A DNA stretch of 15,238 nucleotides from an uncultured Thiotrichales bacterium. GTDB taxonomy: Bacteria; Pseudomonadota; Gammaproteobacteria; GCA-2400775. The notes beneath the pieces were generated by a model. That model made no database searches. It saw only the letters and a program-made list of their open reading frames with translations, and was not told the origin of the DNA. Below are positions 2,059 to 14,919 of this stretch, piece by piece. A program made the translations under genes and the position numbers. Numbering within the stretch: the first letter of the stretch is position 1; each line of letters starts with the position of its first letter. The stretch lies in NCBI GenBank assembly GCA_964447985.1, contig CAYUVE010000036.1, positions 1-15,238 of the forward strand, in the 5' to 3' direction.

Positions 2059-3348
2059 ATGAATATATTTCTAACAGGTGGAACAGGTTTCGTTGGTGGT
2101 TATATTTTAAATGCGCTCAGCAACGCTGGACATAACGTAATAGCCGCAGTGAGAAACACTGAGTCAGCTCATAATCGCTGGCCAAATATCACCCTAGTAG
2201 AAGCAGACTTTGCTAGAGATCATCAAGTAGAAGATTGGTTAGAAAAATTGGATGGTGTTGATGTCGTTATCAATGCTGTTGGAATTATTAGTGAAACTAA
2301 ATTCCAGAGCTTTGATGCCTTGCATGCGAAAGCACCCAGTGCGCTATTTCATGCAGCAGAAAAAGCCAATGTTAAACGTATAGTGCAAATCTCTGCTCTG
2401 GGGGTAGATGAACAATCATTCGTGGAATATCAGTTGAGTAAAAAAGTCGCAGATGATTGCTTGAGATCGTTAAATATAGATTGGGTAATACTTCAACCTT
2501 CTTTTATCTATGGCGTGGGTTCCACTAGTCTCAATTTCTTTAATGCCTTCTCCGCTCAGGGAGTTATTCCACTAATAGGGGGAGGGGGACAAAGAATTCA
2601 ACCGATTTATATTGATGACCTTGTACAAGTTGTTTTGGCTGCGATTGATGGTGACGCGCTTAAGAATAAAACGATACCCGTGGTAGGGCCACATGCTATG
2701 GATATTAGGTCTATATATAAAAAGCTGCACGCGTTTTTGGGTTTAGGTAAAACAAGGTTCATATCAATTCCTTACGAATTAGCACTTTTTGCATCGCATT
2801 TAGGCGTGGGGAAGCTTTTGGGGGCACCTCAATTTACTTCTGACGCTATAAAAATGCTTCGTGCAGGTAATACAAGCAATGTTGTTCGAATTGCAGGTTT
2901 GGATAATTACTCGCCTATTAGCTTTGATCAAGGGTTAGCTAAGATACCAGCACAGTCATCAGACCGATGGCATGCAGGATTATTTTTTTTAAAACCCTTA
3001 CTGCGGTATACAATTGGTTTCTTATGGATATTTACCGCTATTGTTTCAGCGTTTTTATTTCCTGCAGAAAGAAGTTATGCCTTACTCGCTAAAGTAGGCG
3101 TTAGCGAATATTGGGCACCATTTTTACTTTATAGTGCTGCCTCATTGAACTTTATTCTGGGTTTGGCAACATTATTTGCCTATCGAGTCTCGCTATTTGG
3201 TTTACTGCAAATAGCTGTGATAGTAATTTACACCACCTTTATTTCAATTGCGTTGACTGAGTATTGGTATCACCCCTTCGGCCCTGTCAGCAAAAACATA
3301 CCTATAGTTGTTGCTATCATGATCATGATGGTTCTAGAGAAAAAGTAA
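2059..3348 (+). CDS. NAD(P)-binding SDR/NmrA-like (epimerase/dehydratase-fold) protein fused to a C-terminal membrane domain of about 130 aa (4 predicted TM, possibly DoxX-like)
   Basis: N-terminal Rossmann motif MNIFLTGGTGFVGGYIL followed by ...AAVRN... as in atypical SDRs. Residues about 300-429 are hydrophobic helices (LLRYTIGFLWIFTAIVSAFLF, FLLYSAASLNFILGLATLFAY, LLQIAVIVIYTTFISIAL, IPIVVAIMIMMVL). RBS AAGGA upstream. Confidence 0.8.
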   Translation: MNIFLTGGTGFVGGYILNALSNAGHNVIAAVRNTESAHNRWPNITLVEADFARDHQVEDWLEKLDGVDVVINAVGIISETKFQSFDALHAKAPSALFHAAEKANVKRIVQISALGVDEQSFVEYQLSKKVADDCLRSLNIDWVILQPSFIYGVGSTSLNFFNAFSAQGVIPLIGGGGQRIQPIYIDDLVQVVLAAIDGDALKNKTIPVVGPHAMDIRSIYKKLHAFLGLGKTRFISIPYELALFASHLGVGKLLGAPQFTSDAIKMLRAGNTSNVVRIAGLDNYSPISFDQGLAKIPAQSSDRWHAGLFFLKPLLRYTIGFLWIFTAIVSAFLFPAERSYALLAKVGVSEYWAPFLLYSAASLNFILGLATLFAYRVSLFGLLQIAVIVIYTTFISIALTEYWYHPFGPVSKNIPIVVAIMIMMVLEKK

Positions 3349-3815
3349 TGGATTACGAAATAGTGAAATGGCTCCATATTTTAAGTGCCACCTTACTTTT
3401 CGGTACCGGTCTAGGGAGTGCTTTTTATAAGTATATGGGTGATAGATCTCAAGATATTTCAACGATTGCTTACACCAATAAGCATGTTGTGTTAGCTGAT
3501 TGTGTGTTCACTACACCTACAATCGTCATTCAACCAATTACTGGGCTGATTCTTGTTTCGATAATAGGGGGTTCTATTACCGATGTATGGGTAATACTTT
3601 CCATAGTTTTTTACACATTAGCGGGACTATGTTGGTTACCTGTTGTGGTTTTACAAATAAGAATGTCAAAAGCAGCTGAGGCTGCACGGTTAAATAATTC
3701 AGAATTACCAGATAGCTATTGGAGATACACGAATCAATGGTTTTGGCTAGGCATACCCGCTTTTTTGTCAATGATGCTAGTGTTTTTATTTATGGTATTA
3801 AAACCAGGGGCGTAA
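3348..3815 (+). CDS. DUF2269-family integral membrane protein
   Basis: The ATG overlaps the upstream TAA (TAATG), indicating translational coupling. The sequence MDYEIVKWLHILSATLLFGTGLGSAFY..., with four hydrophobic helices, is typical of DUF2269. The ORF track's 3264 start overlaps the upstream gene and is unlikely. Confidence 0.7.
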   Translation: MDYEIVKWLHILSATLLFGTGLGSAFYKYMGDRSQDISTIAYTNKHVVLADCVFTTPTIVIQPITGLILVSIIGGSITDVWVILSIVFYTLAGLCWLPVVVLQIRMSKAAEAARLNNSELPDSYWRYTNQWFWLGIPAFLSMMLVFLFMVLKPGA

Positions 3816-3819
3816 TACG

Positions 3820-4254
3820 ATGATAATCAAAGAAGATATAGCACCATATGTTTCCAAAGGCGATAAAGTCATACTGTTTGATGGGGTGTGCAAACTATGT
3901 AGTGCATGGAGTCGTTTTATCATCAAGTACGATACGGCCCATATATTTAGACTCGCTTCTGTGCAATCAAGAGAAGGGCAGTCGATTCTCAAACACTTTG
4001 ATCTTCCGACTGACTACTTCGAAACGATGCTCTATGTAGAAGAATGTGTTGCTTATGAGAAAAGCGATGCGCTATTCAAAGTATTGATACAGTTGCCAAG
4101 GCCGCTATGCTGGCTAGCTTGCGGCGCTATTTTTCCCAAGCCCGCACGCAATTGGGTCTATGACCGTATCGCCTTGAATCGCTATCAGCTATTTGGCAAG
4201 TATCAGCAATGTTTGCTTCCTCACCCTGATCACGAGACACGCTTTTTATCATGA
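3820..4254 (+). CDS. DCC-family (DUF393) thiol-disulfide oxidoreductase
   Basis: Hallmark motif ILFDGVCKLCSAWSRFI (FDGxCxLC) near the N-terminus. The protein is 144 aa. There is a 4-nt gap after the upstream gene. Confidence 0.8.
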   Translation: MIIKEDIAPYVSKGDKVILFDGVCKLCSAWSRFIIKYDTAHIFRLASVQSREGQSILKHFDLPTDYFETMLYVEECVAYEKSDALFKVLIQLPRPLCWLACGAIFPKPARNWVYDRIALNRYQLFGKYQQCLLPHPDHETRFLS

Positions 4255-4646
4255 CAGGTTCAGGATATGAAAAGATAAACTTAATGTCGAGAACGACATT
4301 AGCTTTCGTGTTCTTCTACCACGGATTGGTTTCAAAAATCATTATTATGGACGATTCAGAGCGTGAAATTATTGAAGCCCATGCGTTTTTATCTTCTTCC
4401 GATGCTATTTTATTGGCTTCTGGTGTGGCGGAAATTATCTTGGCTACACTGTTGGTCATTTTTAGGAACTCATTACTCACGATATATTTAGTAATAGTTA
4501 TATTGTTACTATTGTTGATCGATATCGCTCTATTTACGCCACATATCCTTTTTCAAGCGTTTAGCCCAGTAACTTTAAATATGGTGTGTTTAGTCCTGTG
4601 CTGGGTGGTGATTATCACTCATCAAAACAAAGGGGAATTACCATGA
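4251..4646 (+). CDS. DoxX-like family small membrane protein. An alternative start lies at ATG 4284.
   Basis: ATGA overlap with the upstream stop. The AFVFFYHGLVSKI motif and 3-4 TM helices match the DoxX-like architecture. Confidence 0.7.
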   Translation: MTGSGYEKINLMSRTTLAFVFFYHGLVSKIIIMDDSEREIIEAHAFLSSSDAILLASGVAEIILATLLVIFRNSLLTIYLVIVILLLLLIDIALFTPHILFQAFSPVTLNMVCLVLCWVVIITHQNKGELP

Positions 4647-6196
4647 GTGTTGATAAGAAATACGATGTTATCGTCGTTGGCGGTGGGTTGTCTGGTATGG
4701 CAACGGCGATGTTGCTGCAAAATCAGGGGAACAAGACGTTGCTTCTAGAAGCACATTCTCGCCTTGGCGGTTGTGCGGGGTTTTATCGTCGAGATAAGTT
4801 CAGTTTTGATATTGGTGCAACTACCTTGGTCGATTTTAATAAAGACGGTGTTGGCGGCAATTTTTTACAAAAAGTGGGTTTGCAACCAATAAAGGATGAA
4901 TTACTGCCTGGTTATATGGCGTGGTTGCCTGATCGTCGTGTGGAAGTCGCTTCTGACAATACTCGTTGGCAGCAAGAACGTTTAAAAATGTTGGGAGATT
5001 CTAATAGCCATAGAAGATTCTGGAATACGCTCGACGAAATAGCTGATACCTACTGGCAAGCTTCCAGGTCGGGATTAAAAATGCCCATGCGTTCATTCTC
5101 TGATATGTATCGAAATTGGAAGGCGCTAGACTTCAAAGGGTTGATGATGTCGCCATATTTGTTTTCATCAATGGGTGATTTACTTAGGAAAAATGGTTTG
5201 CAAAATGACCGTCCGCTAGTAGGTTTGTTATCAATGATGATAGAAGATACCGTTCATGCCAAAGTCGATTCCGCGCCCCTTATAAATTCGGCATTGGGCG
5301 TCACAATTCGAGGTGCAGGTTTGGCCAGACCAGTAGGAGGGATGCGCGGTTTCTGGCGTCAGCTTGCTAAACGTTATGTCGAGATTGGTGGCACAATTAA
5401 ACTGAATGCGTACGTTAATCAGATTAGTGGAAAATTAGGCAGTTTCTCAGTTAGAGCAAAGAAAAACAAGTTTCAAGCTTTACAAGTTGTTAGTGCATTA
5501 CCTATTCAAAATACTGCAAAAATTGCCTCACATTGCATAGGTAAGCAAGTGCGACAGTTTATCGAGCGTGATAATAAAGCCTTAGGTGGCGGTATAGTGG
5601 TATGCATCGGTGTTCCTGAGAACCAAGTGATAAATTCACCAAGCGGTCATCGTCACCATCAGCTGCTGCAGTCTTATGAGCGAGATCTGGGTAATGGAAA
5701 TAATATGTTTATTTCAATTTCTGCGGAGGAGGATACATTGAGTGCGCCTGAAGGGTTTCGCTCAGTAATGATTTCAACTCATTGTGAACTAGATGAGTGG
5801 AAATTTCTTAATCATTACGAATATCGAGCTGCGAAGAAAAGTATTACTAAAAAACTTATTACTTACGCTCGTCGCGTATATCCGGCCTTAGGTGAGACAT
5901 ACAAAGTGCTCGAGACGGGTACTCCACGTACTTATAAGTTGTTTACTGATCGTTTTGGTGGGTCAATTGGTGGTGCACGTTTGTCGATGCAAAATGCAAA
6001 TCAAAGAGCAGTACCTTACGACTTAGCCACTCCAGGACTATGGATGGTGGGCGATACGACATGGCCAGGACTTGGTACGGTCGCGTGTGTCATAGGTGCG
6101 AGCCACGTAAGTGAAGGCGTGATGGAGTTATTTCGCGATACTAAACTGCAAGTACGTTCTCATCGTAAAGGTTTAGTGCCGAGTTTACAGTTATGA
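4643..6196 (+). CDS. NAD(P)/FAD-dependent oxidoreductase of the phytoene-desaturase (CrtI/amine-oxidase) family
   Basis: Start at ATG 4643, preceded by AAAGGGG and overlapping the upstream stop (ATGA). The N-terminal dinucleotide-binding motif YDVIVVGGGLSGMATAMLL...LLLEAHSRLGGCAG matches the CrtI/amine-oxidase family. The C-terminal end ...GLWMVGDTTWPGLGTVACVIGA is also typical of this family. The protein is 517 aa. Confidence 0.8.
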   Translation: MSVDKKYDVIVVGGGLSGMATAMLLQNQGNKTLLLEAHSRLGGCAGFYRRDKFSFDIGATTLVDFNKDGVGGNFLQKVGLQPIKDELLPGYMAWLPDRRVEVASDNTRWQQERLKMLGDSNSHRRFWNTLDEIADTYWQASRSGLKMPMRSFSDMYRNWKALDFKGLMMSPYLFSSMGDLLRKNGLQNDRPLVGLLSMMIEDTVHAKVDSAPLINSALGVTIRGAGLARPVGGMRGFWRQLAKRYVEIGGTIKLNAYVNQISGKLGSFSVRAKKNKFQALQVVSALPIQNTAKIASHCIGKQVRQFIERDNKALGGGIVVCIGVPENQVINSPSGHRHHQLLQSYERDLGNGNNMFISISAEEDTLSAPEGFRSVMISTHCELDEWKFLNHYEYRAAKKSITKKLITYARRVYPALGETYKVLETGTPRTYKLFTDRFGGSIGGARLSMQNANQRAVPYDLATPGLWMVGDTTWPGLGTVACVIGASHVSEGVMELFRDTKLQVRSHRKGLVPSLQL

Positions 6197-6612
6197 CATA
6201 TCAAGAAAAAATATTATCTACGGTTTTCTTATCTGCCGCGATATACAACGTGGTATGGGGAGTCTTAATTATTTTCTACCCGAACTTGATATTCAAAGTC
6301 TTTGATATCGAACCGCTTAACTATCCGTTCTTAATGAGTGGTATCGGGATGTTTGTTGCCGTTTATGGATATGGATATTGGGTTGTGTCCAGAGATTTAT
6401 ACTGCTATCCGCAGCTTGTTGTTATAGGTTTGCTCGGAAAAACACTAGGGCCTATAGGATGGGGCTTTACTGTATTAAATGGCGATATTCCGGGGAGAAC
6501 ATTATGGGTCAATGTATTTAATGACTTAATTTGGCTACCATTCTTTGTTTATTATTTGTTTTGGTATCAAAAATATAAACAAAGAAATGATTTCAGCATC
6601 GACACCGCTTAA
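6193..6612 (+). CDS. Small hydrophobic membrane protein (139 aa), translationally coupled to the FAD oxidoreductase
   Basis: ATGA overlap with the upstream stop. Predicted TM helices: LSTVFLSAAIYNVVWGVLIIF, FLMSGIGMFVAVYGYGYWVV, LIWLPFFVYYLFWY. Confidence 0.65.
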   Translation: MTYQEKILSTVFLSAAIYNVVWGVLIIFYPNLIFKVFDIEPLNYPFLMSGIGMFVAVYGYGYWVVSRDLYCYPQLVVIGLLGKTLGPIGWGFTVLNGDIPGRTLWVNVFNDLIWLPFFVYYLFWYQKYKQRNDFSIDTA

Positions 6613-7796: not shown

Positions 7797-8714
7797 CACT
7801 ATGAATAAATTGAACTCACAAATGAATGTTCTTGCTAGCGCACTTGGCGGTTATCGCCTTTATGCGTGCGGCGCGAGCACGCGTGTTCAAAACCTCGAAC
7901 AGGTTTTGTGGCACATATCATTTGATGGTGAGAGTCAAAACATAACGTAGTTCTCTTTTAGGAGGACTGCGTGGCAGTCTTCCTAAGTCTTTATAAAACT
8001 AGGCTTTAGACGACTGTCAGTCTCTGAGGTGCTAGTGATTCTGGGCTGCTTTGTCGTCGAGCCTACTTCTTACTCTCAGAGCAGAAAGCGTCCTACAAAA
8101 CGTGGACATGTTGCGATAGCGGGTTCTTTGGGTCCCGTCTGGCACAAGGCACGCTGTGTTGTTGTGTACCTCATGTTTGCGAGTTGTATCGACACCATAG
8201 GTAGCTCATGGGCAGAGCAGCGAACTGATAATTCGTCGGTAGTGGGTTCGAGTCCCACCCTAGAACAGCCTGCAAAGCTGTTACGCGTAAGCGTACTAAG
8301 TAAAAAACTAGGTGAGAGGCTTCTCGGTTAATGTGTTTGATGGTTAAACGAATATGAAATGGAATTCGCGCTAACAACGGATGGTTTGGCCTGTGTGATA
8401 GACAACGAAATGAAGAACGAACTGTGGCGCTATCGTAGATAGGGAGGCGAAGAGACATAGCTGTGTAGTTAGGCAGCAGTGTCTCGCGATAGACGGGTAA
8501 GCGACTACTCATTTTGACGGTATCACCCGCTAAGACAACGTGGGAAGCCTCTTCATCTTTTTGAAGAGTGACCAATGGTTATATGAAAGAAATGAATGAT
8601 GAAATGAAAGGAGATTAGCAATGAAAACGTAGATGTGTCGGTGACGGCAGCCCGTAAGGTGCACCGAGTGAGAAATGCCGGGCTTATGTTGTGAAATAAA
8701 TAAAGGAAACAATC
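7797..8714 (+). ncRNA. Roughly 900-nt non-coding, hairpin-rich leader or structured RNA preceding the SPFH-RtcB genes. Extent and boundaries are uncertain.
   Basis: No credible ORF: only short, mutually overlapping ORFs on both strands, without RBS context. Stems include 7864-7882 (gcgtgc/gcacgc), 7888-7908 (caaaacct/aggttttg), 7958-7986 (13 bp with one GU, 3-nt loop, sequestering AGGAGG), 8263-8281, a tacgc-GUAA-gcgta tetraloop hairpin, and 8549-8568. The tRNA-like element lies at 8195-8266. Confidence 0.45.
8195..8266 (+). ncRNA. tRNA-like element (pseudo-tRNA, Y-RNA-like or other tRNA mimic) with a defective acceptor stem
   Basis: Folded by hand. U8-A9 ta; D-arm gctc-atgggca-gagc; anticodon stem gcgaa/ttcgt with 7-nt loop ctgataa (U33, anticodon GAU, A37); variable loop cggta; T-arm gtggg-ttcgagt-cccac with a canonical TTCGAGT loop. 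The putative acceptor pairs ccatagg with cctagaa in only 4 of 7 positions. Discriminator is c. No CCA is encoded. Confidence 0.5.
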
Positions 8715-9839
8715 ATGTTAAAAATGAAAAGAGTCGTGATTGCACAGCACGAGCGCGGGTTATACCTAGAAGATAGAAGTATTGTCCGTGTGTTGTCGCC
8801 AGGTGTTTATTGGAGCCTGAGCACAAGAGTGCACATCGTGGTCTTAGATACACGTAATGTGGAGGTAATCCACGATGCAGTATCGGCCTTGGTTGAAAGC
8901 AATCGAGAATTGGCCGAACAATATTTCCAGGTATTAGATCTTGGTGAATATGAAATCGGTCTGTTGTATCAGAGGAACACATTACAAAGGGTGTTAGCGC
9001 CAGGTGAACGTTATGTTTTCTGGAGAGAGAATAAAGATTTGCGAATCGATATTGTCGACATCAAAGAAGACTACCGTTTAGCTAAAGATCTGGCAAAGGT
9101 CTTAGTGAGACGTTCTATTCGTAATGCATCAGAAGCTGTTTACCCAGTAGAAGTGGCATCAGGTCATATTGGTCTGCTGTGGGTGGATGGTGAGCTGATT
9201 GATAGCTTAAAGCCTGGTGTTTACGCCTACTGGCGTTATAACCGTAACATTAAGGTTGAGCATGTTGATCTACGTTTGCAGGCGATTGATGTCTCAGGTC
9301 AGGAAATTCTGACTAAAGATAAAGTCAGCTTACGGATTAACTTAACGGCAGTTTATAAAGTTGTCGATGCGGTAACGGCACGATTAGCGGTAAATGTGTA
9401 TTCAGACCATGTGTATTTGCAATTACAACATGGTTTACGCGAAGCCGTAGCCACACGAACGCTAGATACGTTACTGGCAGATAAGGAGTCTTTAAATGGT
9501 GAGTTGTATCAAACCGTAAAAGCTAACTTAGCTGAGTATGGTATTAAAGTGGATCGTGTTGGTGTTAAGGACATTATCTTGCCTGGTGATATGAAAGATA
9601 TTTTGAACCAGGTTGTGGCGACTGAAAAGGCCGCCCAGGCTAATGTTATCCGTCGGCGTGAAGAAACCGCTGCAACAAGATCGTTGCTGAATACTGCAAA
9701 ACTGATGGATGAACATCCAACATTGATGCGGTTAAAGGAGATTGAAGCGTTAGAAAAAGTCACTGAGAAGGTAGATCGTATTACCGTCTACGATGGCTTA
9801 GATGGTTTGCTTCGAGATACCGTTAAGCTGCAGGTCTAG
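8715..9839 (+). CDS. SPFH/Band-7 (stomatin/prohibitin/flotillin-like) domain protein, no TM segment, with a triplicated N-terminal beta-motif
   Basis: RBS AAGGA lies 7 nt upstream. The SPFH core is recognisable: ...KPGVYAYWRYNRNIKVEHVDLRLQAIDVSGQEILTKDKVSLRINLTAVYKVVD...GIKVDRVGVKDIILPGDMKDILNQVVATEKAAQANVIRRREETAATRSLLNTAK. The N-terminal 150 aa contain two extra copies of the GLLx..L..VL.PG.Y..W motif. The C-terminus is helical and charged. Confidence 0.8.
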   Translation: MLKMKRVVIAQHERGLYLEDRSIVRVLSPGVYWSLSTRVHIVVLDTRNVEVIHDAVSALVESNRELAEQYFQVLDLGEYEIGLLYQRNTLQRVLAPGERYVFWRENKDLRIDIVDIKEDYRLAKDLAKVLVRRSIRNASEAVYPVEVASGHIGLLWVDGELIDSLKPGVYAYWRYNRNIKVEHVDLRLQAIDVSGQEILTKDKVSLRINLTAVYKVVDAVTARLAVNVYSDHVYLQLQHGLREAVATRTLDTLLADKESLNGELYQTVKANLAEYGIKVDRVGVKDIILPGDMKDILNQVVATEKAAQANVIRRREETAATRSLLNTAKLMDEHPTLMRLKEIEALEKVTEKVDRITVYDGLDGLLRDTVKLQV

Positions 9840-9940: not shown

Positions 9941-11137
9941 ATGCCAATTAAACAGGTGATTAAAAAAGGCAAAGTACCCGTCAAAATCTACACCAATGAT
10001 ATTGACCCAGGTGCTTACGAGCAGTTAGCGAATATGGCGCAGATGCCTTTTATTCATTCGCATATTGCTGCCATGCCTGACGTGCATAAAGGAATCGGTG
10101 CCACCGTGGGTTCAGTGATACCAACAAAGGGCGCTATTATTCCTGCTGCCGTGGGGGTAGATATTGGCTGCGGTATGAACGCAGTGCGTCTGAGCCTAAG
10201 TGCCAATGAATTGCCGGATAACTTGAAAGGCCTACGTAGCGCTATTGAGCGCGATGTGCCTGTCGGTTTTGCTATGCATAAAACGGATGCCGTGCCAGAT
10301 TCAACTGTCAGGGCTTTATCTCCAGGGCTAGAGACTATTTGGGGTAAACACCCAAAGTTAAAGCCGAAAAAGAAAAAGCCTTTTCATAGTTGGGTGAGAC
10401 AGTTAGCGACACTAGGTGGCGGTAACCATTTTATCGAGTTATGTCTTGATGAAAATAATGACGTCTGGGTAATGTTGCACTCGGGCAGTCGTGGCGTAGG
10501 TAACGCCATTGGTCAGTACTTTATTGAACTGGCGAGACGAGACATGGAAAAGATTCAAAAGAATCTGCCAGATCGTGACTTGGCTTACTTTACCGAAGGT
10601 ACCGATCATTTTGATGATTATTTACAAGCCGTTAGTTGGGCGCAGGATTATGCTATGACTAATAGGCGTGAAATGATGCGTATCCTTATCAAGGTGTTAC
10701 AGCACAAACTGCCTGCATTTAAAGTGACAAAAGAAGCCATTAACTGTCACCACAACTATGTAGACGAAGAAGTGCACTATGGCGAATCGGTCTTTGTCAC
10801 CCGTAAAGGTGCTATCAGAGCCAGCGAAGGCGAGTACGGGATTATTCCCGGCAGTATGGGTGCAAAATCTTTTATCGTCAAAGGTAAAGGTAACCCAAGT
10901 TCGTTTTGTTCCTGCTCACATGGTGCTGGTAGGGTAATGAGCCGTACTGCAGCGAAAAAGCAGTTCACCAGTGTTGATCTGGAAGCCCAGACCAAAGGTG
11001 TCGAATGTAGAAAGGATAAATCAGTGATTGACGAAATCCCTGCTGCATATAAAGACATCGATACCGTCATGGATAACCAAAAAGACTTGGTGGAAGTAGT
11101 GCATACCTTGAAACAGGTTGTCTGTGTCAAAGGCTAG
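9941..11137 (+). CDS. rtcB: RtcB-family RNA 3'-phosphate/2',3'-cyclic-phosphate to 5'-OH ligase (short form, 398 aa)
   Basis: RBS AGGAAG upstream. All RtcB active-site motifs are present: MPDVHKGIGATVGSV, VGVDIGCGM (metal-ligand Cys), GGGNHFIELCLD, MLHSGSRGVG, CHHNYVDEE, and SFCSCSHGAGRVMSR (the His that becomes guanylylated). Confidence 0.85.
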   Translation: MPIKQVIKKGKVPVKIYTNDIDPGAYEQLANMAQMPFIHSHIAAMPDVHKGIGATVGSVIPTKGAIIPAAVGVDIGCGMNAVRLSLSANELPDNLKGLRSAIERDVPVGFAMHKTDAVPDSTVRALSPGLETIWGKHPKLKPKKKKPFHSWVRQLATLGGGNHFIELCLDENNDVWVMLHSGSRGVGNAIGQYFIELARRDMEKIQKNLPDRDLAYFTEGTDHFDDYLQAVSWAQDYAMTNRREMMRILIKVLQHKLPAFKVTKEAINCHHNYVDEEVHYGESVFVTRKGAIRASEGEYGIIPGSMGAKSFIVKGKGNPSSFCSCSHGAGRVMSRTAAKKQFTSVDLEAQTKGVECRKDKSVIDEIPAAYKDIDTVMDNQKDLVEVVHTLKQVVCVKG

Positions 11138-11192: not shown

Positions 11193-11318
11193 TGCTTAAT
11201 CGAAATAAATATCAAGCAACACCGGGTGGCGTGGTGATATACGCCACCGATTTATTCGACTCGATTTATATAAGATTTTTAAAAGGTTCTAACTATGGAA
11301 ACAAAGCTATTAAATGAA
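11193..11318 (+). CDS. Possible 41-aa small ORF (MLNRNKYQATPGGVVIYATDLFDSIYIRFLKGSNYGNKAIK) overlapping the start of the next gene
   Basis: A strong SD AGGAG lies 6 nt upstream of the ATG. The ORF's stop overlaps the 11295 gene by 24 nt, which could allow coupling. Against it, the ORF contains an 8-bp hairpin (11225-11248, ggtggcgt/acgccacc). It could therefore be a leader peptide, a regulatory structure, or spurious. Confidence 0.25.
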
Positions 11319-12221
11319 GTCATAGCGTGTTTGCCAAAAGGTAAAACACATTATCGCTATTACAAAAATGCCTATGCTGCCAAATTATTGAATATGGCGA
11401 TGCGTCACGACGCGCCTATAAAATCAGTACGTCGGTCGCGCTATGCTAAGTTGTTGAATAATGTATTACTAAAGGGTGTCGTCGCCAATAGTGGCGATGG
11501 CGTTGTGCGTAAGCAGCAACTCGACAGCTTGTGGCAGGAACCTTCGTTACCTTTCATATTGACAGCGGCAAAGTGGCGCTATTGTTCACGTGGCTGGTCG
11601 CAGGTGTCAAGACCAGGCGATAATCTTGTGTTACAGCTTAATATGTCGACACAGCATGATCAGCTTTATGAGCGTTATGTTCACAATTATGATTTTAATC
11701 CATACACATGTCATCCGGTGTTATCAAAGCGGAGAAGATCGATAGCTAGAGAGACTTTAGCCTGGTCACGTATAGATTTTGATTTATCTTCTGACGAAGC
11801 GTTAATCGAAGAGATACAAAGTGATGCTATCAGAGAAATGTTGTGGTTAAAAAATTACACTATGAAACGTGATGACAGTCGTAGTCGCAATGATAAAACC
11901 TATCTAGAATGGTTTGAACCGTATTTAAAGTGTTGGCAAGAAGCGATGTTAATGGCCACGGTAGAATTTATTCGCTACGAACTTGGGATCAGTAGAATTT
12001 ATATTCATACTGATACGTCGGGTTGGAAAGTAAAGAAAATGCGAAAGAATTGGCTGCCACCAAAGTCTTTGTATTCTGATTTGCCAAGGAAATTTGCCTT
12101 TAAGCAAACCTGGAATGCGCCAGAGTTTTTACTGGGTACGCGCGGATATAAAAATCTTATCCGCAAGCAGCCGGATATTGATTTTTATCTTTTAGACTTT
12201 ACTCAGTCCATTGCAGCGTAG
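11295..12221 (+). CDS. Hypothetical protein (308 aa) with no recognisable domain, encoded downstream of rtcB
   Basis: Clean ORF in operon orientation. Composition is basic and aromatic-rich (many R/K/W/Y). I could identify no HEPN, PIN, GGQ, P-loop or Rossmann motif by eye. Confidence 0.7.
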   Translation: METKLLNEVIACLPKGKTHYRYYKNAYAAKLLNMAMRHDAPIKSVRRSRYAKLLNNVLLKGVVANSGDGVVRKQQLDSLWQEPSLPFILTAAKWRYCSRGWSQVSRPGDNLVLQLNMSTQHDQLYERYVHNYDFNPYTCHPVLSKRRRSIARETLAWSRIDFDLSSDEALIEEIQSDAIREMLWLKNYTMKRDDSRSRNDKTYLEWFEPYLKCWQEAMLMATVEFIRYELGISRIYIHTDTSGWKVKKMRKNWLPPKSLYSDLPRKFAFKQTWNAPEFLLGTRGYKNLIRKQPDIDFYLLDFTQSIAA

Positions 12222-12444: not shown

Positions 12445-13056
12445 TCATATAGTCATAGGCTTATTATCTTTATGCTGCCACATATACATAGCGAGATATG
12501 AGCGGTAGGGCGAGAACTTTTCAGCTGTTGTGCTGATATCTTTATCATCACCTATTAGTTTTTGAAAGGTTTTGATGACAGCTACATCTTTATCGGGCCA
12601 TATGTCTGGGTCACAAAAGTAAAAAAGATTGACCATGTCAGCTGTCCATGGACCGACTCCCCAAATTGATGTTAGGGTTTTCGCACGTTGTTTCTGATCT
12701 AGCTTTTCCAAATTTTCTGCGGTGATATGTCCTGTATGAAAACTATGAGCAATAGCAGACAGTGTTTTGCACTTCGCGGCAGATAACCCGCAAGTGCGCA
12801 GGTCTTCGGTCTTACTAGAATGAATAAACTCTAGTAATGATTTTCCGTTTGATACATCTAAGAGTCTTTGCCAAATGGTACTAGCCGCTTTGGTTGAGAG
12901 TTGCTGGCCTGCTACTGAACGACAAAGTAATTCTGGTAGTGGAATATGTTGTCGAGAAGTGATTTTGACAACGCCTATTTGTTTGATGGAATGATGTAAT
13001 GGCCCACTGATATTCTTAGAGAGTTTTAAAAATTGTTGATGAATAGAACGAGACAT
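12445..13056 (-). CDS. HhH-GPD superfamily DNA glycosylase (AlkA-like DNA-3-methyladenine glycosylase II)
   Basis: Helix-hairpin-helix/GPD motif ...LTSIWGVGPWTADMVNLFYF.DPDIWP.D.... The 203-aa length is typical of single-domain AlkA/Mag-type glycosylases. Confidence 0.75.
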   Translation of the reverse strand: MSRSIHQQFLKLSKNISGPLHHSIKQIGVVKITSRQHIPLPELLCRSVAGQQLSTKAASTIWQRLLDVSNGKSLLEFIHSSKTEDLRTCGLSAAKCKTLSAIAHSFHTGHITAENLEKLDQKQRAKTLTSIWGVGPWTADMVNLFYFCDPDIWPDKDVAVIKTFQKLIGDDKDISTTAEKFSPYRSYLAMYMWQHKDNKPMTI

Positions 13057-13086
13057 TAATTTTTGTAGTGCTTCTGACTAGGGGGA

Positions 13087-14919
13087 CTAGTTTAAGGAGT
13101 CATGGTCCTCTTTACGTATACCAAATATTTTCATTCGATAGTTGAGTGTTGAGGCTTTAATGCCCAATAATTCAGCAGCGCCATCTTTTCCCCAGACTTG
13201 CCAATTAGCACTGCGAAGTGCAGCAATAATGTTATTTTTTTCCATTTCGCGGATCTCAGCGTCCGTGAGGTAATCTGTATTTTTTGTTTTCGACTGAGAT
13301 ACTAGGGTTTCCTGAGGTGCGAGTTTAGGGAGGACTAAATCGAGCCGAGCGCGGCCGCCTTTACTTAAGATGGCAGCACGCTCAATGGTATTCTTGAGTT
13401 CTCTTATATTACCTGGCCAGTCATGTTGTTTAAGGTGATTAACTTGTTGTTTTGAGAGTTTTAATGACTCTCGACCGAGTTGTGTACAACTACGGTTAAG
13501 AAAATGTTGTGCAATGGGTGCAATATCATCGGTGCGTTCACGTAGTGGCGGTACGTTAATAGGGAAGACACTTAAACGGTAAAATAGGTCTTGGCGAAAA
13601 AGGCCTTTCTTAATCTGTTCTTCAAGATTTAAATTCGTTGCAGCAATAATGCGAACGTCCACTTTAATGGTTTTATCATCGCCTACGCGTTCAAATTCAT
13701 ATTCTTGTAATACACGTAATAATTTGCTTTGCAGATCAAGCGGAATTTCGCCAATTTCATCGAGAAATAATGTACCGCCATCGGCAAGTTGCATACGGCC
13801 TATTCGGTCTCGATGTGCACCGGTAAAGGCGCCTTTTACATGACCAAAAAATTCGCTTTCAAATAAGTCTTTCGGGATAGCGGTGCAGTTGACCTTAACT
13901 AAGGGCTTACTGCTACGATCGCTCTTAGCATGAATAGCACGTGCAATCATTTCTTTACCTACACCCGATTCGCCTAGTAATAAGACGTTGGCTTGTGTTG
14001 TGGCTACGGCATCAATCTGTGCCATGGTGCGCTTTAAGGCATCGCTATCGCCAATAATTTCTCCAAAATCAGAAGTCACATTTATTTCATCGCGTAGGTA
14101 ATCGCGTTCGAGTTCAAGTTGCTGTTTGAGGTGGTTAATTTCCCGGTAGGAAGCTTCGCGTTGTTTCTCGATTTCTTTACGTTCGGAGATATCACGAAAA
14201 ACGACAACGGCGCCAGCGAGTTTTCCGTTTTGACGAATAGGTGTGCTGGTGTATTCCACGGGTATGGGTGAGCCGTTGGCATGCCAGAATACTTCATCAT
14301 CGACATGATGTACTTCGCCGTCCTTGAGTGCGGCATAAACGGGGCATTCGTCTCGTGGATAGATTGAACCATCTACCCGGGTATGGTGATGAACATCATG
14401 AGCGGGTTTACCGATGACGTCTTCGAGTTTCCAACCAACAATTTCAGTAGACGCGGCATTGGCAAAGATGGTCATGCCATTAGCGTCTAAGCCGTAAATT
14501 CCCTCACCAGCGGCGTTAAGAATGGACGCATGTTCTGTTTCTAAGCGCTCGAGCTTGGTTAAGGCTTCGTCGAACTGATCATTATGGTTTATGTGTAGTG
14601 CTAACCATGGTTTGTCATCGTCGTCTCTCGGCAGTGACCAGGCAGACATCAAGCCATGCACGACACCGCTTTTTCCATTGATGGAGACAGGAAGAGCTTG
14701 TAGCGGTTTTTCCTCGGTCCTTGCTTGCTGCAGTGTTTCCACCAACATCGAGTCTTCTTCAATATCAAAGAGTCTATCTAACGGTAAGACAGTGTCGTCG
14801 CTATTGGCCATGCCGAGATGCTGTGCCCAGCCCTGACTGATATGCCGACAGACGAGTTGTGCATCGAGTAAGCCGAGAAGAGTCGGTGCTTCATTCAGTA
14901 GCTTTGTTGTTGTGAGCAT
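13087..14919 (-). CDS. Sigma54-dependent transcriptional activator (bacterial enhancer-binding protein) with N-terminal PAS-type sensor domains and a C-terminal Fis-type HTH
   Basis: AAA+ sigma54-interaction core: LLLGESGVGKEMIARAIH (Walker A), ESEFFGHVKGAFTGA (GAFTGA motif), GGTLFLDEIGE (Walker B), WPGNIRELKN. The N-terminus contains PAS-like repeats (GIYGLDANGMTIFANAAS...). The C-terminal HTH is AAELLGIKASTLNYRMKIFGI. Confidence 0.85.
   Translation of the reverse strand: MLTTTKLLNEAPTLLGLLDAQLVCRHISQGWAQHLGMANSDDTVLPLDRLFDIEEDSMLVETLQQARTEEKPLQALPVSINGKSGVVHGLMSAWSLPRDDDDKPWLALHINHNDQFDEALTKLERLETEHASILNAAGEGIYGLDANGMTIFANAASTEIVGWKLEDVIGKPAHDVHHHTRVDGSIYPRDECPVYAALKDGEVHHVDDEVFWHANGSPIPVEYTSTPIRQNGKLAGAVVVFRDISERKEIEKQREASYREINHLKQQLELERDYLRDEINVTSDFGEIIGDSDALKRTMAQIDAVATTQANVLLLGESGVGKEMIARAIHAKSDRSSKPLVKVNCTAIPKDLFESEFFGHVKGAFTGAHRDRIGRMQLADGGTLFLDEIGEIPLDLQSKLLRVLQEYEFERVGDDKTIKVDVRIIAATNLNLEEQIKKGLFRQDLFYRLSVFPINVPPLRERTDDIAPIAQHFLNRSCTQLGRESLKLSKQQVNHLKQHDWPGNIRELKNTIERAAILSKGGRARLDLVLPKLAPQETLVSQSKTKNTDYLTDAEIREMEKNNIIAALRSANWQVWGKDGAAELLGIKASTLNYRMKIFGIRKEDHDSLN

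What the first reader, a model, noticed from the sequence alone, without database searches (positions are those of the whole stretch)
8715..9839. Atypical SPFH/Band-7 protein: no membrane anchor and a triplicated N-terminal beta-strand motif
Bacterial SPFH proteins (HflK/C, YqiK, slipins) usually have an N-terminal TM helix and an NfeD partner, and neither is present here. Instead, the first roughly 190 residues contain three tandem copies of a roughly 40-55-aa motif, GLL(Y/W)x5(L/I)xx(V/S)LxPGxYxxWRxNxxxxIxxVD. The third copy is the true start of the SPFH fold. This indicates internal duplication of the first SPFH beta-segment. The fold may therefore oligomerise on a soluble or RNA scaffold rather than a membrane.
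Basis: seen in the sequence. Interest (0 to 1): 0.6.

Follow-up and report, generated by a model that had tools for sequence, protein, structure and literature searches.

The report
Anchorless SPFH protein of RtcB RNA-repair module
This gene encodes a stomatin-like scaffold protein with no membrane anchor, whose first beta-sheet module is present three times, and it sits between a conserved tRNA-like RNA and the RNA ligase RtcB; this gene pairing was predicted in 2016 but has never been studied experimentally.

Summary
ORF 8715..9839 is a 374-aa SPFH/Band-7 protein with no hydrophobic segment and no NfeD partner. It carries three homologous N-terminal units (shuffle z 5.4-9.7; profile-profile E 4e-10 to 6e-8). 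AlphaFold2 folds each unit confidently as five beta-strands; the third opens the canonical SPFH domain. The repeat period is about 70 aa, not 40-55.

The context explains it. RtcB follows directly. A tRNA-like element lies 449 nt upstream (8195-8266), preceded by two covarying hairpins. The tRNA-like element is upstream in 75 of 81 loci; RtcB is within 6 kb in 38 of 80. This is the Band-7 / "b7a-tRNA" / RtcB module that a 2018 preprint attributes to Burroughs and Aravind (2016). The window is therefore a new member of a known, still uncharacterised kind.

Most likely it is a soluble ring- or cage-forming scaffold that works with the tRNA mimic and RtcB. Assembly, solubility and RNA binding are inferred, not shown.

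The parts
7957..7987 (+). Terminator-like hairpin (14 pairs plus a T-rich tail) that closes the upstream transcription unit. It marks the likely left boundary of the RNA/SPFH/RtcB module.
8119..8167 (+). Conserved 5' extension of the tRNA-like RNA. Hairpin 1 is 8119-8123 / 8134-8138, with a T-arm-like GGTTC loop. Hairpin 2 is 8142-8147 / 8162-8167. The sigma-54-like TGGCAC at 8140 lies inside hairpin 2.
   Evidence: The alignment of 25-26 loci shows compensatory changes in both stems. There is no Rfam family here.
8195..8266 (+). tRNA-like element (b7a-tRNA type) with a cloverleaf and a GAT anticodon. Only 4 of 7 acceptor pairs form, so it is not a normal tRNA-Ile.
   Evidence: ARAGORN. Rfam tRNA 48.7 bits, but only model positions 4-67. 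Acceptor-pair analysis. Family covariation in 22 of 31 pairs.
8267..8714 (+). 448-nt spacer or leader between the tRNA-like element and the SPFH start. It contains small GNRA-type hairpins and an AAGGA ribosome-binding site 8 nt before the ATG. No terminator-like site was found in it. Its role is unknown.
8715..9839 (+). SPFH/Band-7 protein gene, 374 aa, with no membrane anchor.
8724..8924 (+). Repeat unit 1 (aa 4-70): five beta-strands (5-45) followed by helices 54-70.
8925..9137 (+). Repeat unit 2 (aa 71-141): five beta-strands (71-115) followed by helices 124-141.
9138..9284 (+). Repeat unit 3 (aa 142-190): five beta-strands that are the canonical start of the Band_7 domain.
9285..9584 (+). 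SPFH alpha/beta core (aa 191-290), stomatin-like.
9585..9836 (+). Long C-terminal helix (aa 291-356) and short tail. Together with the preceding strand (aa 283-353) it is the most conserved part of the family, with 0.90 mean column identity. It aligns with the stomatin region that follows the SPFH core.
9941..11137 (+). RtcB RNA ligase, full-length.
   Evidence: Pfam RtcB E 9.3e-132, model positions 1-426 of 426
11295..12221 (+). 308-aa conserved hypothetical protein (X308). It is an occasional third gene of the module and lies after a terminator-like hairpin at 11225-11248.
   Evidence: Present next to the SPFH gene in 7 of 80 loci, in varying order. It has 566 homologues, with no Pfam, NCBIfam or PDB match.
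13087..14919 (-). Transcriptional activator with a PAS domain, a sigma-54 AAA+ domain and an HTH. Its AAA+ core is RtcR-like, but no match covers RtcR's N-terminal part. It is convergent with the module and only a possible regulator.

Best explanation
The gene encodes the SPFH/Band-7 scaffold protein of an RtcB-centred RNA-repair module.

Shown: it is a stomatin-type SPFH protein in which two extra copies of the first beta subdomain of the SPFH fold replace the usual membrane hairpin or TM helix. It sits behind a conserved structured RNA (two hairpins plus a tRNA-like cloverleaf) and in front of RtcB. The RNA-protein pairing is the most conserved link.

Inferred: like every solved stomatin, HflK/C, QmcA, flotillin, prohibitin or erlin complex, it assembles through its very conserved C-terminal helix into a closed ring or dome. 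The stacked beta units extend the wall on the side that would otherwise face a membrane, so the assembly is cytosolic.

Inferred: the tRNA-like RNA is its cognate RNA, as Y RNA is for Ro60. It either tethers the scaffold to tRNA-handling enzymes or mimics the substrate. The particle would then concentrate or shield broken tRNAs for religation by RtcB.
For: Fold and family:
- Pfam Band_7 E 8.4e-29.
- PDB profile search: PH stomatin E 3.4e-28 and human stomatin E 3e-24, both covering residues 184-353.
- AF2 model mean pLDDT 81, with three five-stranded units.

No anchor.

Duplication of the SPFH beta subdomain.

Ring-forming relatives: the matched PDB entries hold 16 stomatin chains and 26 QmcA chains, and the four HflK entries hold 48 chains between them. 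The region 283-353 is the most conserved (0.90, against 0.62-0.73 elsewhere).

Context:
- RtcB lies 101 nt downstream.
- A tRNA-like element lies 267-625 nt upstream on the same strand in 75 of 81 loci. These loci were kept from matches in at least 590 stretches of the one-genome-per-species collection.
- RtcB lies within 6 kb in 38 of 80 loci, and directly downstream in 27 of 65 loci with enough sequence.
- Loci without RtcB have unrelated downstream genes, so the RNA plus the protein form the core pair.

The RNA is a distinct family, not ordinary tRNAs:
- The D stem is invariant, and 22 of 31 pairs show compensatory changes.
- Pair 1-72 forms in only 21 of 73 copies.
- 12 of 13 Leu or Tyr anticodon copies are 73-76 nt and so lack the class II long arm; 13 copies have A34 anticodons, 11 have abnormal loops and 1 has a stop anticodon.

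Literature: the RtcB + Band-7 + predicted b7a-tRNA link, proposed as functionally parallel to Ro60/YrlA, is reported in bioRxiv 10.1101/312249, citing Burroughs and Aravind 2016. A P. aeruginosa SPFH gene (PaFlo8) lies inside the rtc locus.
Against: - No direct evidence exists for oligomerisation, solubility, RNA binding or an RtcB interaction. Only monomers could be modelled.
- The relative orientation of the domains is uncertain (pTM 0.52).
- The N-terminal units and the whole protein are about electroneutral, with no basic patch typical of RNA binders.
- RtcB is absent from about half of the related loci.
- Two long-repeat relatives have neither RtcB nor a detectable tRNA-like element directly upstream.
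- Flotillins attach to membranes without a TM helix, so the lack of one does not prove a cytosolic location.
- Deleting P. aeruginosa PaFlo8 gave no phenotype in general assays. RNA-damage conditions were not among the assays described in the passages read, and I did not confirm that PaFlo8 has the same N-terminal units.
- The primary 2016 paper could not be read.
Confidence: 0.6

Rival explanations
1. The upstream hairpins and tRNA-like fold are a cis-acting leader of the SPFH-RtcB mRNA, not a separate cofactor RNA bound by the protein. For example, the leader could sense tRNA-modifying or tRNA-cleaving activities, or be processed by RNase P or RNase Z, and so control expression. The SPFH protein would then act on something else.
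For: - The element is always on the same strand, 267-625 nt upstream.
- No terminator-like site was found between 7987 and the SPFH start.
- Only 12 of 73 copies encode CCA.
- The N-terminal units carry no basic charge.
Against: - A tRNA-like fold would normally be excised by RNase P and RNase Z, giving a stable separate RNA.
- The pairing persists where the downstream genes differ, which ties the RNA to the protein rather than to an operon.
- Many loci carry two tandem copies or extra T-arm modules, which is more typical of a structural RNA than of a leader.
- The two readings are not exclusive.
Confidence: 0.2
2. It is an ordinary membrane-microdomain SPFH scaffold attached peripherally, as flotillin is. 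The two extra beta units serve as a spacer or membrane-contact module, and the RNA-repair neighbours are unrelated to its function.
For: - All solved SPFH assemblies among the matches abut a membrane (abstract of PMC12624060 listed).
- In those structures the N-terminal SPFH subdomain is the membrane-proximal part (my own knowledge of them).
- The PaFlo8 deletion gave no phenotype.
Against: - There is no hydrophobic or hairpin segment and no NfeD partner.
- The tight linkage to a dedicated structured RNA in 75 of 81 loci across many gammaproteobacterial families is unexplained by a membrane role.
Confidence: 0.12
3. The protein is a bacterial homologue or ancestor of the major vault protein. 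Its beta repeats would correspond to MVP repeats, its SPFH core to the shoulder and its helix to the cap helix.
For: - The order of parts is the same: a beta-repeat stack, then an SPFH-like domain, then a long helix.
- Repeat number varies from 3 to at least 8 (probably about 11) in relatives.
- Vaults are also RNA-containing particles.
Against: - No Pfam Vault or MVP_shoulder match, even at E <= 10.
- No MVP chain in PDB sequence searches at E <= 1 or E <= 10.
- MVP is absent from the Foldseek top 50.
- The units are demonstrably copies of this protein's own SPFH beta segment.
- True bacterial MVP homologues belong to other taxa and are a different family.
Confidence: 0.05
4. The upstream tRNA-like genes are ordinary tRNA genes that served as integration sites for a mobile SPFH(-RtcB) island. 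Their variety of anticodons would then reflect different insertion sites.
For: - The anticodons differ widely between loci.
- tRNA genes are common island insertion sites (general knowledge).
- Ten loci sit beside tRNA arrays.
Against: - The elements share one invariant D arm and a conserved 5' two-hairpin extension with covariation.
- Their acceptor ends are unpaired.
- The Leu and Tyr copies lack the long arm, and there are A34, stop and abnormal anticodon loops.
- Orientation and distance are fixed.
- No integrase was found in the window.
Confidence: 0.03

Closest known systems
Band-7/SPFH + b7a-tRNA + RtcB RNA-repair systems (Burroughs and Aravind, Nucleic Acids Res 2016, as summarised in bioRxiv 10.1101/312249)
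   Same: The three components are the same and adjacent: a Band-7 protein, a predicted tRNA-like ncRNA and RtcB. The linkage is conserved across many genomes.
   Different: Nothing essential differs; the window is one more instance. I could not check three details against that paper, because it is not in the library: the three-fold SPFH beta-subdomain repeat with variable copy number, the two covarying hairpins 5' of the tRNA-like fold, and the 308-aa partner.
Prokaryotic stomatins / slipins (for example Pyrococcus PH1511 with its NfeD/STOPP partner PH1510; E. coli QmcA-YbbJ)
   Different: There is no N-terminal hydrophobic hairpin or TM helix and no NfeD operon partner. Two extra beta units occupy the N-terminus, and the neighbours are an RNA and an RNA ligase.
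Ro60 (Rsr) with YrlA/YrlB Y RNAs in the rsr-yrlBA-rtcBA operon of Salmonella
   Same: It works alike on paper: a ring- or scaffold-forming protein plus a non-coding RNA with a tRNA-like module, encoded next to RtcB. The two have been proposed to be interchangeable.
   Different: The protein fold is unrelated, since no TROVE or vWA domain was found in the window. The RNA here is a nearly complete cloverleaf with its own 5' hairpins, not a Y RNA stem.
Major vault protein / vault particle
   Same: The order of parts is analogous (beta-repeat stack, SPFH-like shoulder, long helix), and an RNA-containing cage is conceivable.
   Different: The repeats are not detectably related to MVP repeats by sequence or structure. 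Similarity of the SPFH core to the shoulder is shared by all SPFH proteins.

Membership tests
SPFH / Band-7 superfamily (Pfam PF01145) | Match to the Band_7 profile above the curated threshold, over the whole domain | tested here: met
   101.3 bits against a cut-off of 23.6; residues 146-317 match model positions 2-175 of 176
SPFH / Band-7 superfamily (Pfam PF01145) | SPFH alpha/beta fold | tested here: met
Stomatin / slipin, membrane-anchored and NfeD-partnered | Stomatin-type core plus the C-terminal helical region | tested here: met
   The family profile hits PH stomatin at E 3.4e-28 and human stomatin at E 3e-24 over residues 184-353
Stomatin / slipin, membrane-anchored and NfeD-partnered | N-terminal hydrophobic hairpin or TM helix | tested here: not met
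   The highest 19-residue hydropathy mean is 1.17, and no upstream extension of the ORF is possible. Only 1 of 120 relatives reaches 1.6. Dedicated TM predictors were not available.
Stomatin / slipin, membrane-anchored and NfeD-partnered | NfeD/STOPP gene in the same operon | tested here: not met
   No NfeD match among the 17 window ORFs scanned with Pfam, nor among the nine of them also scanned with NCBIfam
Stomatin / slipin, membrane-anchored and NfeD-partnered | Homo-oligomeric ring or dome | not testable with these tools
   Only single-chain prediction was available. Inferred from the relatives.
Band-7 / b7a-tRNA / RtcB RNA-repair module | Band-7 gene adjacent to an RNA ligase (RtcB) | tested here: met
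   RtcB at 9941..11137, 101 nt downstream on the same strand. RtcB lies within 6 kb in 38 of 80 related loci.
Band-7 / b7a-tRNA / RtcB RNA-repair module | Adjacent tRNA-like non-coding RNA | tested here: met
   8195-8266. Present in 75 of 81 loci. The cloverleaf shows covariation.
Band-7 / b7a-tRNA / RtcB RNA-repair module | The RNA is expressed and associates with the Band-7 protein, and the module aids RNA repair | not testable with these tools
   The b7a-tRNA was reported as not experimentally validated in 2018. No later study was found.
Major vault protein | MVP repeat (Pfam Vault) and MVP shoulder signatures | tested here: not met
   No such Pfam hit at E <= 10 for the N-terminal units, nor for multi-repeat relatives at E <= 0.1. 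No MVP chain in PDB sequence searches.
Major vault protein | Repeat units structurally equivalent to MVP R domains | tested here: inconclusive
Ro60 / Y RNA RNP | TROVE-domain protein | tested here: not met
   No TROVE match in any window ORF scanned

The most novel reading that the evidence does not exclude
A membrane-free bacterial SPFH cage, a functional 'mini-vault'. Its wall would be built from tandem copies of the SPFH N-terminal beta subdomain, with wall height set by copy number (3 here, at least 8 in relatives). It would carry its own tRNA-mimic RNA. It would either enclose broken tRNAs with RtcB for repair or present the mimic as bait for anticodon nucleases. The neighbouring 20-30-gene tRNA arrays in some genomes could be a spare tRNA set belonging to the same stress response.
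Probability: 0.25. Interest if true: 0.85.

Novelty: new member of a known kind. Interest (0 to 1): 0.5.

Why it matters
All SPFH assemblies solved so far among the matches (stomatin, HflK/C, QmcA, flotillin, prohibitin, erlin) are domes that sit on membranes. A widespread bacterial SPFH protein that has swapped its anchor for extra folded modules and travels with a dedicated tRNA-like RNA and an RNA ligase would extend the family to cytosolic RNA-protein particles. It would also give a second, unrelated solution to what Ro60 and Y RNA do next to RtcB. The system was found in at least 590 stretches of a one-genome-per-species collection, was predicted in 2016, and appears to be experimentally untouched. 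The parts mapped here make it directly testable: protein domain boundaries, RNA boundaries with covarying stems, and the optional 308-aa partner.

Tried and rejected
- Sigma-54 promoter at 8140 (TGGCAC-N5-ACGC). I rejected it as a promoter call. The pattern is not enriched in the window (5 matches against 7.1 expected). Only 3 of 75 loci fit it, and in just one of them besides the window at a comparable position. The bases lie in a hairpin with compensatory changes.\n- Vault homology. See the rival explanation; it is not supported.\n- tRNA gene as an island insertion site. Rejected.\n- Basic-charge signature for RNA binding. None found.\n- Single-sequence folding of 8100-8300. Uninformative, z = 0.37.\n- Conservation of the 448-nt spacer. 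No similarity between the window and other loci. Other clades share a T-arm-like module there that the window lacks.\n- Context of long-repeat relatives P0215 and P0271. No RtcB and no intact tRNA-like element directly upstream, only about 1 kb of non-coding DNA, with tRNA-like fragments in L082. It is therefore unclear whether the whole repeat family shares the RNA link.\n- PADLOC defence models. No hit for SPFH, RtcB or X308.\n- X308. No Pfam, NCBIfam or PDB match, even with a profile.\n- Tools and sources that were unavailable. The AlphaFold-database fold library was unavailable. The primary Burroughs and Aravind paper is not in the library. One Pfam call failed on a bad coordinate. One row (L042) of alignment A3 used wrong coordinates and only adds noise.

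Full report
**1. The observation**

ORF 8715..9839 (+) encodes 374 aa. Its ATG is the first start codon after an in-frame stop, so no hidden N-terminal extension exists. Homologues start at the same position. Pfam places a complete Band_7 domain at residues 146-317, matching model positions 2-175 of 176, with E 8.4e-29.

The highest 19-residue Kyte-Doolittle mean is 1.17, so no transmembrane or hairpin segment is present. Among the 120 closest relatives only one reaches 1.6. None of the window's other ORFs matches NfeD.

The three copies of the motif are real. Units aa 1-71, 72-142 and 143-213 align with local scores of 57, 50 and 69, against 24 +/- 4.6 for shuffles (z = 7.5, 5.4 and 9.7). They score at background against the C-terminal half. 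Family profiles of the units match one another at hhalign probability 95-97% and E 4e-10 to 6e-8. The conserved beta part is about 45 aa, but the period is about 70 aa.

**2. Structure**

An AlphaFold2 model built from 41 family members has mean pLDDT 81. Each of the three units forms five beta-strands: 5-45, 71-115 and 142-185. Units 1 and 2 are each followed by two short helices. Unit 3 runs straight into the SPFH alpha/beta core (191-288) and a helix of about 65 residues (291-356).

A separate model of residues 1-145 has mean pLDDT 84 and pTM 0.73. The N-terminus is therefore a pair of folded domains, not a disordered tail.

Units 1 and 2 are duplications of the first beta subdomain of the SPFH fold.

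**3. The family**

The word-indexed search returned 7,985 proteins at E <= 1e-5. The best 120 cover at least 93% of the query (nearly all 98-100%), and most are 373-384 aa long. Where named, they are called 'slipin family protein'.

An exhaustive search with residues 1-145 alone found 470 cluster representatives. A unit HMM counts three units in most full-length members. It counts 4, 5, 7 and at least 8 in longer proteins, for example P0183 (637 aa), P0163 (787 aa) and P0215 (894 aa). In P0215 the spacing implies about 11 units. Every long relative scanned with Pfam ends in a Band_7 domain, and only one representative (P0166) has a strongly hydrophobic segment.

Within the family the most conserved stretch is 283-353, comprising the last core strand and the long helix, at 0.90 mean column identity. 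The beta units score 0.62-0.71 and the core 0.73. The units are electroneutral.

**4. The neighbourhood explains the protein**

RtcB (E 9.3e-132, full length) starts 101 nt downstream.

ARAGORN calls a tRNA-Ile(GAT) 449 nt upstream, at 8195-8266. Rfam scores it at 48.7 bits, but only over model positions 4-67. The first three acceptor pairs are mismatched, so it is tRNA-like rather than a working tRNA.

I fetched 80 related loci from at least 590 matching stretches in the one-genome-per-species collection. They are mostly Gammaproteobacteria. Counting the window as an 81st locus, 75 of 81 have such an element on the same strand, 267-625 nt (median 398) upstream of the SPFH gene. RtcB lies within 6 kb in 38 of 80 loci. 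It lies directly downstream in 27 of the 65 loci with enough sequence. Where RtcB is missing, the downstream genes are unrelated. The conserved core is therefore the RNA plus the protein.

The elements form one family:
- The D stem is invariant, and 22 of 31 predicted pairs show compensatory changes.
- Pair 1-72 forms in only 21 of 73 copies, and CCA is encoded in 12 of 73.
- The anticodons are very varied. 12 of 13 Leu or Tyr copies are 73-76 nt and so lack the class II long arm; 13 copies have A34 anticodons, 11 have abnormal loops and one has a stop anticodon.

The roughly 80 nt in front of the cloverleaf are also conserved. They form two hairpins with covariation (window 8119-8138 and 8142-8167). 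Rfam has no family for them. What looked like a sigma-54 promoter at 8140 lies inside the second hairpin and is not a conserved promoter pattern.

A strong terminator-like hairpin at 7957-7987 bounds the unit on the left. None lies between the RNA and the SPFH gene.

**5. What is known**

[quoted passage not shown] It adds that this RNA and YrlA sometimes swap partners, and that the RNA had not been validated. It cites Burroughs and Aravind 2016. From memory, that paper's abstract names SPFH/Band-7 modules with 'a novel tRNA-like molecule' as potential scaffolding cofactors of RNA-repair systems. I could not open it.

A 2026 study notes that P. aeruginosa PaFlo8 lies in the rtc locus, and found no phenotype for its deletion in general assays. 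I found no structural or biochemical work on this protein family. Bacterial proteins that are true MVP homologues belong to other taxa and to a different family.

**6. Mechanism**

Shown:
- The protein is a stomatin-type SPFH protein whose membrane anchor is replaced by two extra folded copies of its own first subdomain.
- It is genetically coupled to a dedicated structured tRNA-like RNA, and often to RtcB.

Inferred, with about 0.6 confidence overall:
- It assembles through the conserved C-terminal helix into a ring or dome, like its solved relatives. Among the matched PDB entries there are 16 chains for stomatin and 26 for QmcA, and 48 chains in four entries for HflK.
- The beta units extend the wall.
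- The particle is cytosolic and uses the tRNA mimic as a tether or substrate mimic, to organise RtcB-dependent repair of cleaved tRNAs. This would parallel Ro60 and Y RNA.

The main rival (0.2) is that the RNA is a cis-acting leader rather than a bound cofactor. A peripheral-membrane role (0.12), vault homology (0.05) and a tRNA insertion site (0.03) are less likely.

**7. Verdict**

The functional idea is plausible and agrees with a published prediction. The system is a new member of a known but experimentally unexplored kind. I could not check three details against the 2016 paper, so they may be new: the variable-copy SPFH-subdomain repeat, the 5' hairpins of the RNA, and the 308-aa partner.

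Noticed in passing
L003:1542-5679, L036:1133-5602, L070:428-5603; also L004, L008, L009, L011, L012, L039, L045: Ten of 80 related loci carry arrays of 5-34 tRNA genes packed directly upstream of the tRNA-like element and the SPFH gene. L003 has 25, L036 has 22 and L070 has 34 within a few kb. This could be a spare tRNA set linked to the repair module, or just a shared genomic neighbourhood.
   Followed up: partly
window 11295-12221 (+): A 308-aa conserved hypothetical protein lies after RtcB. It has 566 homologues, all unnamed, with no Pfam, NCBIfam or PDB match even with a profile. It sits next to the SPFH gene in 7 of 80 loci, in varying order (SPFH-RtcB-X, SPFH-X-RtcB, or SPFH-X without RtcB). 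It has many invariant residues, including W, H, D, E and R.
   Followed up: partly
proteins P0215 (894 aa), P0163 (787 aa), P0183 (637 aa); loci L081, L082: Relatives have 5 to about 11 copies of the N-terminal unit before the same SPFH core, often as alternating unit-1-type and unit-2-type pairs. The two loci inspected have no RtcB and about 1 kb of non-coding DNA upstream. L082 contains a T-arm followed by a D-arm-like piece at about 5250-5330, which may be a split or permuted tRNA-like element.
   Followed up: partly
spacers after the tRNA-like element in L003, L004, L005, L006, L010, L012, L015, L017, L030, L036, L037, L042, L080: In many loci a small hairpin and a second T-arm-like module (consensus GGCGAAAGCC-TGCGGTTCGAATCCGC) follow the tRNA-like element. 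23 loci have two or more tRNA-like genes within 1 kb upstream of the SPFH gene. The window lacks the extra T-arm and has GNRA-type hairpins instead (8267-8300).
   Followed up: partly
window 12445-14919 (-): A HhH-GPD DNA glycosylase-like gene and an activator with PAS, sigma-54 AAA+ and HTH domains are convergent with the module. The activator's AAA+ core matches RtcR models, but the matches cover only the AAA+/HTH part, not RtcR's N-terminal part. Whether it regulates the RNA/SPFH/RtcB unit is unknown. Sigma-54 activator homologues are also near RtcB in L043, L050, L058 and L075.
   Followed up: no
window 11225-11248 (+): A terminator-like hairpin (9 pairs, 6 of them GC) lies between RtcB and the 308-aa gene. 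This suggests partial termination after RtcB.
   Followed up: no
window 2059-6612 (+): Upstream lies an unrelated gene cluster. It encodes a NAD-binding/DoxX fusion, DUF2269, a DCC1-like thiol-disulfide oxidoreductase, DoxX and an FAD amine-oxidase-like protein, preceded by a MarR-family regulator (1470-1997).
   Followed up: no
window 8029-8331 (+) and 8171-8575 (-): Two ORFs of 100 and 134 aa overlap the structured RNA and leader region. Neither has a family match, so they are most likely spurious.
   Followed up: partly
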